Part shown: positions 1,557 through 6,025 of the stretch, in pieces | Position numbering within the stretch: position 1 is the first letter of the stretch | Layout: each line of letters opens with the position of its first letter | From: Eledone cirrhosa | Taxonomy: Eukaryota | Direction: 5' to 3' | Length of the DNA: 64,000 bases | Assembly: GCA_964016885.1 (NCBI GenBank) | Contig: OZ024759.1 | Location: forward strand, 24,924,001 to 24,988,000 | Program-made: the position numbers and the translations under genes | Notes under the pieces: generated by a model | Databases searched by the model: none | What the model was told of the DNA's origin: nothing | What the model saw: the letters and a program-made list of their open reading frames with translations, nothing else

Positions 1557-1924
1557 TATATATATATATATAATATCTATATCTAAAATATAAAATTATA
1601 TTTGGGAAAAGTAAACAAGATAAGAAGAAAAAAATCTTTATCTATTGACTTTAACCTAATATATTCTTTCCATATACTGTACTGATTGTGTTGCTCTTTC
1701 TGTTTACCTTTTACACACATCACACATATTTATTTAGGTTTGTTGGTTCACCACTGGATAGAGCTGGTCATTCCATATGGTCAGCCTCGATGTAATATTA
1801 TGAAGAGCACTCAACGTAATGCAACTCACCTGTCTTCTTTTGTGTAGTTGGTGGTGCGAGTACGGAGTTAATTATTATAAAATAACAGGAGGCTGGACTG
1901 GTGTAATTCCTTAAAAGGTTTATT

Positions 1925-1982
1925 ATACTATGATCATTTCAATGACCGAGTTCAGTGTGAATCCGGTGACATCATCAGGTAT
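1925..1982 (-). ncRNA. Minimal type I hammerhead ribozyme motif (family A, left arm)
   Basis: Mirror image of 2148-2205. Confidence 0.7.
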
Positions 1983-2147
1983 TCGAAATATAACAAAGGA
2001 ATATAATAGACAAAATCCATGGGGCTGAAAATCAGAGACATGATGGCGGCCGACCAAGGTAGAAGCTGCTAAATGTTTGGTCACCCTCATGTCTCTGATT
2101 TTCAGTCCCATGGATTTTGTCTATTATATTCCTTTGTTATATTTCGA

Positions 2148-2205
2148 ATACCTGATGATGTCACCGGATTCACACTGAACTCGGTCATTGAAATGATCAT
2201 AGTAT
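2148..2205 (+). ncRNA. Minimal type I hammerhead ribozyme motif (family A, right arm)
   Basis: ATAC-CTGATGA-stem II (ACCG..TTCA cac TGAA..CGGT)-GAAA-TGATCA-TA-GTAT, then AATAAA at 2206-2211. Confidence 0.7.
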
Positions 2206-2496
2206 AATAAACCTTTTAAGGAATTACACAAGTCCAGCCTCCTGTTATTTTATATATATATATATATACATACATACACACACACATATACATACATATA
2301 TCGTGAGATGGATTTATGATATCATGACAATATAATAGTGAAAATTAAACTACTATTGATTAGTCAATATATCAATATTATGATCAATAACCCAAAACGA
2401 TCGTAAAACAATGAACCTATTAAGTACTAAACTTCACCTACTTTGTTGTTATTGTTCAACCTATGTATTTACACACACGCATATATATATATATAC

Positions 2497-3154
2497 ATAA
2501 GAGGGATCAGATGTTGTTTACTCGAGAGAAGGCTACGTTGGTATGGACACGTGATGCGCATGAAAGTCGATAGCTGTATAACAAAGTGCAGGGCAATAAA
2601 GATAGACGCTAGTCACGGAATAGGCAGACCTAGAAAAACCTGGGACGAGCTGATAAACTCCAACATCACACACTTACACCTCTCCAAGACAATGTCACTG
2701 GACCGAGACCTTTGGCGGTACTCAGTAACAGAGAAGACCCGCCTTACCTAAATATATAGTAAAACCTACTCCAGCCAGTAGGCATCTCTAACAAAATACA
2801 CCCCGTCCCACCACCACCACCCCCACCCCATCCACACCACCCCGTTCTATGTAAAGTTATGTTGGTGCCGCGCCATCCAGGCCGAAACAAATGAGATCGC
2901 GTAGGTGTCACGACAAAAAAAACACACAGTCCACGCTGTAATGTGGCCGTGTAGGCAACACGGTAAAAACCTCCCAGTTCCACACTGTAAATGTGGTTGG
3001 TGTTAGGAAGGGCATCCAACTGTAGAAAACCTGCCAGACAGTCCTATGCGAGCAAGACAATCACTCTTGCCTCAAGTGGGACTACCCCCGTCCAAACCCA
3101 TGCAAGCGTGGAACACGGACGTTAAACGTTGATGATGATGATGATGATGATGAT
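2497..3154 (+). mobile_element. RTE-clade LINE family A, 3' fragment
   Basis: Encodes ERRLRWYGHVMRM...GRPRKTW (RTE C-terminus); 3' UTR and (GAT)n tail; near-identical to 5105-5763. Confidence 0.92.
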
Positions 3155-3206
3155 ACATAATATATATAGAGATTACAATAATCAAAGTTCAGTTTAAGTC
3201 ATTTAT

Positions 3207-3255
3207 TTGCTTACAATTGTTTCCTCCAAACCGAGGTTTGGATTCTTCGGAGCAA
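3207..3255 (-). ncRNA. Minimal hammerhead motif, U4C core variant (family B, left arm)
   Basis: Mirror image of 4016-4064. Confidence 0.7.
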
Positions 3256-4015
3256 CTATTTACTGATCTATAACGTACTTGACCTCCTTTTCAACCCAAG
3301 AGACATATAAAACATATGCGCATATTGATCAACAGTGGGGTGACATTCATCAAATGATATAGCATGGCAATTTACATATACAGGTTACAGGATAAAAATA
3401 AAAATAAAAACAAAAATGAAAAGAACCGACTAGATACGGTATATAACTTGATTATATGCCGAACCATCTTGAGTTATACGATAGACACGTGTTCTATATA
3501 TTGCGTCTCATGGATTATGGTGAGCGAAGACAGTGGTACGGCTTTGCCTACGATACAATAAGGTTTATAGTATGTTGAAAGTTTCTGATATTTTGGTGTT
3601 TCCCTGCATCCGGGACTGTATATCATACAGATGTATGCGAATAAATGACTTAATAATTCAGCCCACATAATAAGATCGATTGCCTGCTTCAACTGCCTGA
3701 CCCTGCAAATATCATTCTGACGCACTCTAATCATGTATAAATAAGACACGCGTGCATGCTACACGTGAGATTGTTTCATACACAGACTACTCTAAACTTT
3801 CCTCTTGCTTTATCTTCATAGACTGCCAACGCTTCATGTTTATCTTTATTTTCATTTTTGTTTTTATTTTTATTTTTATCCTGTAACCTGTATATGTAAA
3901 TTGCCATGCTATATCATTTGATGAATGTCACCCCACTGTTGATCAATATGCGCATATGTTTTATATGTCTCTTGGGTTGAAAAGGAGGTCAAGTATGTTA
4001 TAGATCAGTAAATAG

Positions 4016-4064
4016 TTGCTCCGAAGAATCCAAACCTCGGTTTGGAGGAAACAATTGTAAGCAA
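4016..4064 (+). ncRNA. Minimal hammerhead motif, U4C core variant (family B, right arm)
   Basis: TTGCT-CCGAAGA-a-TCCAAACC tc GGTTTGGA-g-GAAA-CAATTG-TA-AGCAA, with AATAAA at 4064-4069. Confidence 0.72.
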
Positions 4065-4307
4065 ATAAATGACTTAAACTGAACTTTGATTATTGTAATC
4101 TCTATATAACTGCTCTGTAAAACAACTGATGTTATTACATTGAGCTATTTATCTTACTGGTAATAGGATAGTAATTAATGACTATCTTTCACTATTTAGG
4201 GTTTGTATAAATAATATATTACCATTAAAGGTTTTATTACATACATAACCATAAATAGTATCCTTAATACATAATATATATATATACATAATATATATAT
4301 ATATATA

Positions 4308-4415
4308 TAATTGTTTCTACTTTAGGCACAAGGCCAGCAATTACCCAGTGCATTACTGGTACTTTATTTTATCGACCCCGTAAGGATGAAAAGCAAAGTC
4401 AACATAGGCGGGATT
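4308..4415 (-). mobile_element. SINE family 1, 3' part
   Basis: Matches the recurrent GCCTTTCATCCTTACGGGGTCGATAAAATAAAGTACCAG...GGCCTTGTGCCTAAAGTAGAAACAATT. Confidence 0.85.
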
Positions 4416-4511
4416 AAACTACTATTGATCATATAATATATATATATAGACTACTATTGATCATATAATATATATATATAGACTACTATTGATTATATAA
4501 TATATATATAT

Positions 4512-5763
4512 AGACCAAAGTTCTAGTTTATAGGAAAGAAAATAAGGCGGCGGTCCCTTCCGGGAAGTGGCCATGCTCAGTGTGTAGGAATGGCGTAGGT
4601 AGAAACTCCATTTTGTGTCCCAAATGCAAAGTATGGGTGCATAAAAGATGTAGTGGGATCACAGGTAAGCTAACTAAGAACATAGATTTCACATGTGGCC
4701 GGTGCTCTGGTGCAATAAGTAGCAGCAAGTGCCCACAAAATACTAGCTATTTCAACTGCGCAGAGGGTTCTATAGAAATAGTGGACAGCTTCCGTTACCT
4801 GGGTGACAAAATCAGCAGTGGGGGAGGGTGCTCTGAAAGTACTGTAGCTAGAGTCAGAACTGGATGGAAAAAGTTCAGAGAGCTTATACCACTATTAGCC
4901 GCTAAAGGGTTCTCCCTAAAAACGAAAGGCAGGTTGTATGATGCCTGCATACGAACAGCAATGTTGCATGGCAGTGAGACCTGGGCATTGTGTGCAGAGG
5001 ATATACGCAGACTAGAGAGGAACGAAGCTTGCATGCTCCGCTGGATGTGTAATAGTAATATACGTGAACGGCAAAGCATAAGTGAACTAAGGGAAAAATT
5101 AGAAATAAGAGGGATCAGATGTTGTTTACTCGAGAGAAGGCTACGTTGGTATGGACACGTGATGCGCATGAAAGTCGATAGCTGTATAACAAAGTGCAGG
5201 GCAATAAAGATAGACGGTAGCCACGGAATAGGCAGACCTAGAAAAACCTAGGTAGAACTAGAGAATAAATTCCGAACTGATAAACTCCGACCTCACACAC
5301 TTACACCTCTCCAAGACAATGTCACTGGACCGAGACCTTTGGCGGTACTCAGTAATAGAGAAGACCCGCCTTACCTAAATACATAGTAAAACCTACTACA
5401 GTCAGTAGGCATCTCTAACAAAATACACCCCCGTCTCACCACCCCCACCCCATCCACACCGCCCCCTTCTATGTAAAGTTATGTTGGTGCCACACCATCC
5501 AGGCCGAAACAAATGAGATCGTGTAGGTGTCACGACAAAAAAACACACAGTCCACGCTGTAATGTGGCCGTGTAGGCAACACGGTAAAAACCTCCCAGAC
5601 CCACACTGTAAATGTGGTTGGTGTTAGGAAGGGCATCCAACTGTAGAAAACCTGCCAGAAAGTCCTATGTGAGCAAGACAATCACTCTTGCCTCAAGTGG
5701 GACTACCCCCGTCCAAACCCATGCAAGCGTGGAACACGGACGTTAAACGATGATGATGATGAT
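4512..5763 (+). mobile_element. RTE-clade LINE family A, 5'-truncated
   Basis: ORF 4580-5251: Cys finger, VDSFRYLG, LHGSETW, RRLRWYGHVMR; (GAT)n tail. Confidence 0.95.
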
Positions 5764-6025
5764 ATATGTGTTGTTTCCTTGAGCAAGACACTTTATTTCA
5801 CATTGCTCCAGTTTACTCAGCTGTAGAAATGAGATGATAGGGACTTAGGCCCCTATCATTCCACTGCAAAGTGGTCGTGGAGGTGCCATGGCAAAAAAGC
5901 ACCCAGCATTCACTGTAAATGAGGTTGGTGTTAGGGAGGGCATCCAGCTGTAGAAATCAAGCCAGAATCAGTTCCTGTCCCACCCTTGCAAGCAGGGAAA
6001 AAGCGGACGTAAAATGAAATGATGA
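5764..6025 (+). mobile_element. SINE family 2 (CORE-like body plus RTE-type tail), headless
   Basis: CCTTGAGCAAGACACTTTATTTCAC...CTCAGCTGTAGAAATGAG then LINE-like tail; matches 42130-42455. Confidence 0.85.

What the first reader, a model, noticed from the sequence alone, without database searches (positions are those of the whole stretch)
3163..4108. Element B: 260-bp inverted arms with a U4C hammerhead variant around a non-coding core
Seen: both arms read CCGAAGA instead of CUGANGA, with a perfect 5-bp stem I, 8-bp stem II, ACAATTGT palindrome and AATAAA. The 426-bp core has no credible ORF but has a TATAAATA near 3736. Inference: a non-autonomous unit with a possible internal promoter and a natural catalytic-core variant. 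It could be mistaken for a long-TIR DNA MITE.
Basis: partly seen in the sequence, partly recalled or inferred. Interest (0 to 1): 0.72.

Follow-up and report, generated by a model that had tools for sequence, protein, structure and literature searches.

The report
Penelope retroelement lineage with C4 hammerhead
This is an ordinary cut-short, mirror-doubled end of an abundant Penelope-type jumping gene, but thousands of copies across its lineage carry C instead of the near-invariant U in the core of a predicted self-cutting RNA fold, which likely still works slowly and in pairs; cutting is untested.

Summary
The inverted arms (3163-3425 and 3846-4108) and the CCGAAGA hammerhead motif are real, but this is not a non-autonomous unit or MITE. 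The 'core' is 3' UTR. Full-length relatives encode an 826-aa RT plus GIY-YIG protein with Hydra-clade motifs; arm lengths vary from 125 bp to 3.2 kb. C4 is the lineage norm: 6,672 matches with C4, 261 with U4, 138 with G5A. It persists across subfamilies with ~62% flank identity, although it is a CpG and flank CpGs mostly decay. The stem III palindrome changes through wobble and compensatory states, as a dimeric hammerhead would require. Against efficient cutting: core mutations here lower activity in print, and no full-length copy starts at the cut site. In the papers I could search, U4C is described from one viroid variant and published Hydra hammerheads have U4; a key paper was not held. 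The scan noted U4C Penelope hammerheads in four other genomes (unchecked). Verdict: known element type, new ribozyme variant; cleavage untested.

The parts
3421..4270 (+). 5'-truncated main copy of the Penelope-like element (positions 3850-4716 of the 4,716-bp unit): 3' UTR, hammerhead region and tail
   Evidence: 96.5% identical over 867 columns to natural full-length copy L038
3163..3425 (-). Inverted, shorter 5'-truncated copy (unit positions ~4291-4554), ending at the short terminus without tail; joined to the main copy through ~5 nt shared sequence at 3421-3425
3426..3845 (+).
   Evidence: present single-copy in 40 of 40 scored genomic copies and continuous with the ORF upstream in full-length copies
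4016..4064 (+). Type I hammerhead fold with U4C: stem I 4016-4020/4060-4064, core 4021-4027, stem II 4029-4035/4040-4046, GAAA 4048-4051, palindrome 4051-4058, predicted cut after 4059
   Evidence: descriptor scan and folding; conservation and pair counts
3207..3255 (-). Mirror copy of the same hammerhead fold in the inverted arm
4109..4270 (+). [quoted passage not shown]
3157..3168 (+). Possible target duplication (12 bp, TA-rich, repeated at 4271-4282); low complexity, weak
   Evidence: read from the flanks printed

Best explanation
This is the 5'-truncated end of an autonomous Penelope-like retroelement with a shorter inverted copy joined to it, and its hammerhead fold carries C4 as the lineage's normal letter and likely still acts as a slow self-cutting RNA that would need two copies paired through the palindrome. 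Shown: the element's identity and layout (about 0.95), the intact RT plus GIY-YIG ORF in relatives, TA-microsatellite flanks, two alternative 3' ends, and C4 as majority state in every subfamily sampled. Inferred from published PLE work: the endonuclease nicks a TA-rich target; reverse transcription starts inside the RNA at one of two sites (short end or tail end); one cDNA stopped after ~850 nt and a second, inverted one after ~260 nt, giving the arms. Inferred here: a full-length copy has two hammerheads 4.7 kb apart; they pair through stem III and cut rarely, so most template RNA is uncut or re-ligated; selection keeps the fold, the dimer palindrome and the catalytic letters, and C4 is kept as a tolerated or mildly favoured weak setting.
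For: Element: 28 of 30 fetched loci match core plus one arm only. Shared sequence runs up to ~4 kb upstream with variable truncation. Inverted partners range from 125 to 3,250 bp, and the tail is usually on one arm only. 826-aa ORF with RWR, DKT, YRDD, CxCx5C, C-terminal GIY-YIG-like, CxxC and CxH motifs. Open frames of >=800 aa in 23 of 50 loci, some fetched twice; dN/dS 0.17-0.19 between subfamilies. The same layout is described for PLEs in PMC8557442. C4: 970 vs 7 exact matches; 6,672 vs 261 with a clade-wide pattern. In 20 loci picked by protein similarity alone, 17 gave the motif, all with C4. Fold under selection: N7, loop II and H17 vary while H17 is G in 1 of 171 copies. One stem II pair switches A-U to G-C. 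The palindrome moves through AATT, GATT, GATC, AGTT and AGCT, and 135 of 144 distinct copies can pair both inner positions in a dimer, against 36 of 256 possible tetramers. Flank CpGs are kept in 21 of 318 comparisons, other dinucleotides in 44%. In the older U7 subfamilies U4 (182) exceeds the catalytically damaging G5A (about 47, estimated from 34 of the first 100 of 138 listed), hinting that an intact core matters for spread.
Against: No cleavage data. In a mutagenesis of another hammerhead, all CUGA single mutants had low activity (PMC9901934 passage), and U4C 'considerably decreases activity in vitro' (PMC3088659). The motif also lacks the conserved G10.1-C11.1 pair noted in PMC4209133. 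Of 23 distinct full-length insertions with an upstream repeat, 21 begin 5' of the predicted cut, 2 begin 3' of it and none at it. Hammerhead mutants did not affect insertion in vitro for an Anolis PLE (PMC11167929). Covariation statistics are modest: 3 pairs with double changes (184/500 shuffles reach it) and covariation score 11/500, which relatedness can inflate. Distant subfamilies were found by patterns that fixed most core letters, so their core conservation is partly built in. The U4 excess in older subfamilies also shows that U4 copies can spread, which argues against a need for C4. No U4 outgroup lineage was found, so the direction of change rests on published Hydra motifs.
Confidence: 0.6

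Rival explanations
1. Same element, but the C4 fold no longer cuts. It is kept as a shape that the element's protein or a partner RNA recognises (dimerisation, template choice, positioning the RT start site 49 nt downstream).
For: No insertion starts at the cut site. CUGA mutants have low activity. Cutting was dispensable in vitro for another PLE. U4, which should cut better, arises constantly by CpG decay and has not taken over.
Against: H17 switches among A, C and U and avoids G, and N7 varies, as the cleavage rules predict. A U4C viroid hammerhead is reported to stay active in vivo (second-hand). A binding-only role does not obviously need every catalytic letter.
Confidence: 0.25
2. C4 is a neutral founder mutation. 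The ribozyme hardly matters, and the variant simply rode along with successful master copies.
For: In younger subfamilies U4 (79) and G5A (about 91, estimated) are about equal, as plain CpG decay gives. Other CpGs inside the hairpin also persist over several subfamilies. Naiads are reported to thrive without canonical hammerheads.
Against: The motif stays nearly fixed while the 200 nt upstream fall to ~62% identity and dS reaches ~0.5. Palindrome and stem II changes are compensatory.
Confidence: 0.13
3. A non-autonomous unit with fixed arms (long-TIR MITE or retrozyme-like) that has its own promoter in the core.
For: One other locus (L002) has a similar overall outline. TATAAATA lies at 3736.
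Against: L002 has different junctions and the tail on the other arm. Arm lengths vary more than 20-fold, the core is 3' UTR of coding copies, and the TATA word is not conserved.
Confidence: 0.02

Closest known systems
Hydra clade of C-terminal EN+ Penelope-like elements (Craig et al. 2021, PMC8557442; seen: passages, section 11, supplement part 2 and search hits), e.g. Hydra-1_Obim, Hydra-1_Ajap, Penelope-13_HM
   Same: Single RT plus C-terminal GIY-YIG ORF; DKT, CxCx5C, CxxC and CxH motifs; (TA)n targets; type I hammerhead near the 3' end with short palindromic stem III and an extra base after A9; inverted 5'-truncated copy, as noted for Penelope-13_HM.
   Different: C4 instead of U4 (all 26 Hydra rows of File S2 read ctga). 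RWR for RWK. Unit 4.7 kb with ~2 kb 3' UTR, against generally <3 kb. Tail 162 bp, against 30-40 bp. The protein is distinct from Hydra-1_Obim by eye, and the best database relative is only 39% identical.
Minimal / dimeric PLE hammerheads (Cervera and de la Pena 2014, PMC4209133; seen: parts 1-2 of 4; two supplements searched, one not searchable; figures not seen)
   Same: Short stem I, long stem II, unpaired base after A9, palindromic stem III implying dimers, opposite-strand pairs 100-700 bp apart from truncated PLEs, low activity; a family-wide core variant (U3-A8) is already known.
   Different: The known variant is a compensatory swap; U4C is uncompensated. G10.1-C11.1 is replaced by U-A flanked by two unpaired bases.
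U4C hammerhead of a viroid variant (Ambros and Flores 1998; not held, known only through PMC3088659 passages and section 8)
   Same: Same core change; reported as reduced in vitro but sufficient in vivo.
   Different: There it is a sequence variant of a viroid RNA; here it is the majority state of thousands of genomic copies across many subfamilies.
Poseidon element PAc of Anolis (Frangieh et al. 2024, PMC11167929; passages)
   Same: Two alternative 3' ends separated by a tail; insertion from RNA not cut at the hammerhead.
   Different: Different clade, canonical core, and a short tail.

Membership tests
EN+ Penelope-like element | Single ORF with RT and GIY-YIG endonuclease | tested here: met
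   826-aa ORF in full-length relatives with YRDD and a C-terminal IIY..YIG motif; collinear with published Hydra proteins by eye. Pfam and PDB gave no hit, so the assignment rests on motifs.
EN+ Penelope-like element | Partial tandem (pLTR), inverted 5'-truncated copy, tail at one end | tested here: met
Hydra clade | DKT, CxCx5C linker, CxxC and CxH at the C-terminus | tested here: met
   all four in 5 of 5 open frames checked
Hydra clade | RWK motif | tested here: inconclusive
   RWR at the matching position, a conservative change
Hydra clade | Insertion into (TA)n | tested here: met
   3' flanks printed for 30 loci run into TA or CT/TA repeats in nearly all
Hydra clade | RT groups with published Hydra RTs in a tree | not tested
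   The published sequences were seen only as cut text in a supplement; no tree was built, so clade membership is likely, not shown
Canonical type I hammerhead | CUGANGA core | tested here: not met
   CCGANGA in 6,672 matches against 261 with U4
Type I hammerhead fold (variant) | Three helices around core, GAAA, NUH site, covariation | tested here: met
   stem III is stable only as a dimer
Type I hammerhead fold (variant) | Self-cleavage | not testable with these tools
   needs an in vitro assay or raw RNA reads
MITE (DNA transposon derivative) | Fixed terminal inverted repeats in all copies | tested here: not met
   28 of 30 loci match one arm only; inverted partners 125-3,250 bp
Non-LTR retrozyme | Short non-coding monomers in head-to-tail tandem | tested here: not met
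   the sequence is the 3' end of a coding 4.7-kb unit; no tandem short monomers in the 42 loci mapped

The most novel reading that the evidence does not exclude
A whole radiation of active Penelope-like elements has been selected to keep a deliberately weakened hammerhead. U4C is maintained against constant CpG-driven reversion to the faster U4 form, because slow, dimer-gated cutting (or a cutting-free role of the fold) is what retrotransposition needs. The same change may have arisen repeatedly in Hydra-type elements of other animals. Such motifs are invisible to CUGANGA-based searches.
Probability: 0.3. Interest if true: 0.72.

Novelty: new variant of a known kind. Interest (0 to 1): 0.47.

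Why it matters
Why Penelope-like elements carry hammerheads is stated as unclear in PMC8557442, and an in vitro study found cutting dispensable. This lineage supplies a natural allelic series (C4, U4 revertants, G5A; five palindrome states) in young elements with intact ORFs, so the need for cutting and for dimerisation can be tested without invented mutants. It also shows that descriptor searches fixed on CUGANGA miss thousands of conserved motifs. The insertion in this window is itself a dead, ordinary fragment.

Tried and rejected
Rfam: no hammerhead among the 150 of 180 matches listed for the window or the 7 matches for 3980-4110. Pfam gave nothing for P0001/P0002 and nothing relevant for three homologues; PDB gave one chance hit. 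Sequencing runs: no RNA holder listed. Two runs of unknown kind, one sample, were laid as contigs; they cannot show ends or expression, and no other letter was listed at 4022 at the 10% threshold. I give this no weight. Outgroup search: a U4 motif with a different stem II in L129 found no family; the pattern gave 2 matches, both C4 copies with indels, and the first 100 of 408 U4 matches were almost all the same clade. The tree of 171 motif flanks scatters U4 copies over many subfamilies with a few small clusters; U4 copies were oversampled on purpose and the alignment is short, so it shows only that U4 is not one clade. MITE, retrozyme and core-promoter readings were rejected (see rivals). Literature: searches found no description of U4C in Penelope elements (one search was uninformative). 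In the PMC8557442 supplement 'ccgaaga' occurs 17 times; I saw 2, both apparently inside coding DNA. Ambros and Flores 1998, Lunse et al. (PMC5785218) and PMC2271363 were not held; Lunse et al. may already describe this variant. One supplement of PMC4209133, all figures, and the supplements of the 2026 bioRxiv preprint (parts 1-2 of 5 and a term search read) were not seen.

Full report
Observation. The arms are real: 3163-3425 and 3846-4108, 263 nt, 99% complementary, 420 nt apart, with two mismatches. Each holds a type I hammerhead-like fold with CCGAAGA in place of CUGANGA, a 5-bp stem I, a 7-bp stem II with a 4-nt loop, and the palindrome ACAATTGT before a GUA site. The two-copy fold pairs the palindromes: -32.4 kcal/mol against -12.3 for each monomer. 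Rfam does not recognise it.

What the element is. A search of the own genome G000 (3.0 Gb) gave 1,910 candidates, of which 40 were scored. 28 of the 30 loci fetched match the core plus one arm only. Shared sequence continues upstream to variable points and up to about 4 kb in longer stretches. Two copies, L032 and L038, hold an 830-codon open frame. The repeating unit is 4,716 bp: short 5' UTR, ORF, about 2 kb 3' UTR, hammerhead at 4467, a short end at 4554 and a 162-bp tail to 4716. The window holds unit positions 3850-4716 at 3421-4270 and an inverted 4291-4554 at 3163-3425. Inverted partners in other loci measure 125 to 3,250 bp, and usually only one arm carries the tail. PMC8557442 describes exactly this layout for Penelope-like elements (passages). 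PMC11167929 explains the tail by two internal start sites of reverse transcription (passages).

The protein. It has RWR, DKT, YRDD, a CxCx5C linker, a C-terminal GIY-YIG-like motif, CxxC and CxH. These match the Hydra-clade description in section 11 of PMC8557442, except RWR for RWK and the larger size. The flanks are TA-rich. Pfam and PDB give nothing. The best database relatives are 37-39% identical; the best named one is from Argonauta hians. I built no tree with the published Hydra proteins, so membership is likely but not shown. The family is young and was recently active: 23 of 50 loci (some fetched twice) have open frames of 800 aa or more. A sister subfamily at 82-83% protein identity has many near-identical intact copies. 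dN/dS between subfamilies is 0.17-0.19, at dS up to 0.55.

The core letter. The exact 49-nt motif occurs 970 times with C4 and 7 times with U4. In 20 loci chosen by protein similarity alone (81-96% identity), the scan found the motif in 17, always with C4, and found none in 3. A clade-wide pattern gives 6,672 matches with C4, 261 with U4 and 138 with G5A, controls 0. These counts are motif matches, often two or three per insertion. Older subfamilies with U at position 7 give 1,128 C4 and 182 U4; G5A there is about 47, estimated from 34 of the first 100 rows listed. The remaining, mostly younger, subfamilies give 5,544 C4, 79 U4 and about 91 G5A. C4-G5 is a CpG, so decay yields U4 and G5A equally. 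That fits the younger subfamilies. In the older ones U4 is about four times G5A, which suggests U4 copies could still spread while G5A copies could not; strand-biased decay is not excluded. All 26 Hydra rows in File S2 of PMC8557442 have U4.

Is the fold under selection? Across 17 hand-picked subfamily representatives (an 18th gave no match) the 200 nt upstream average 62% identity over 136 pairs, while 11 core positions are identical. This is partly built in for families found by pattern. Unbiased signs are the positions that vary. N7, loop II and the two unpaired bases beside stem II change freely. H17 is A, C or U and is G in 1 of 171 copies. One stem II pair changes from A-U to G-C in 4 of 17. 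The four inner letters of the palindrome would be a free loop in a monomer. They run through AATT (73), GATT (35), AGTT (12), AGCT (6) and GATC (6), and 135 of 144 distinct copies can pair both positions in a dimer, against 36 of 256 tetramers. Formal statistics are modest: 6 double-change cells (6/500 shuffles), covariation score 11/500, pairs with double change 184/500, and relatedness can inflate these. Flank CpGs survive in 21 of 318 comparisons against 44% of other dinucleotides, so the lasting C4-G5 CpG is unusual. Other CpGs in the hairpin also last over several subfamilies, which weakens the argument.

Does it cut? This is untested. U4C is reported to lower activity considerably while still allowing viroid infection (PMC3088659, passage and section 8; the primary paper was not held). 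CUGA mutants were low in a full mutagenesis of another hammerhead (PMC9901934, passage). Metazoan PLE hammerheads are weak and dimer-dependent even with U4 (PMC4209133, parts 1-2). One search examined 55 loci; 31 rows had an upstream direct repeat at 88% identity or more, and 8 of those were the same place fetched twice. Of the 23 left, 21 begin 18 to about 1,470 nt 5' of the predicted cut (some limited by the locus edge), 2 begin 3' of it, and none at it. Templates were therefore uncut, re-ligated into circles, or joined by template jumps; the data do not separate these.

Mechanism and odds. Element identity and origin of the arms: about 0.95, shown by comparison; the priming steps are inferred from published work. 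Role of the fold: slow dimeric ribozyme 0.6, non-cutting recognition or dimerisation fold 0.25, neutral passenger 0.13, non-autonomous unit 0.02.

Novelty. The element type, layout and dimeric hammerhead are known. What I could not find described is an uncompensated U4C core as the normal state of a large retroelement lineage (searches; supplements). Lunse et al. on PLE hammerhead variants was not held and may cover it. The scan's own notes report U4C Penelope hammerheads in four other genomes (unchecked AI notes) and no look-alike of this DNA. Here C4 appears old and retained rather than recently gained. I rate it a new variant of a known kind, interest 0.47.

Noticed in passing
window 1874-2247: A second fold-back stub with a canonical CUGAUGA hammerhead-like motif (core at 2152-2158 on +, mirrored on -) and a different palindrome; likely the end of another Penelope-like family. 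Seen; Rfam gives no hammerhead hit.
   Followed up: no
window 2496-3155 and 4512-5760: Two fragments of a LINE-like repeat ending in (GAT)n flank the insertion; a 245-aa open frame at 4514-5251 looks like the C-terminal part of a LINE protein. 'RTE' is my recall; it was not searched.
   Followed up: no
window 4109-4270; L038 and L032: The optional tail is 162 bp, four to five times the 30-40 bp given for PLEs, and is perfectly continuous with the 5' UTR in tandem copies, so the two presumed RT start sites lie unusually far apart.
   Followed up: partly
older U7 subfamilies, e.g. L111, L113, L114, L141, L149: U4 copies exceed G5A copies about fourfold, and several insertions have U4 in both arms, suggesting U4 source elements that transposed.
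   Followed up: partly
L129, minus strand near 5968: A degenerate motif of the same architecture with U4 and a different stem II; a possible outgroup family, not found again.
   Followed up: partly
L082 (80, 1030) and L083 (6876, 6996): Canonical-core hammerheads of unrelated families lie right beside copies of this clade.
   Followed up: no
3' UTR of full-length copies (L031, L032, L038): An internal direct repeat of about 150 bp at ~80% identity, 430-740 bp upstream of the part present in the window.
   Followed up: no
window 19763 (-) and 60614 (-): Weak hits to my hammerhead descriptor with only 3-bp stem II; chance or decayed.
   Followed up: no
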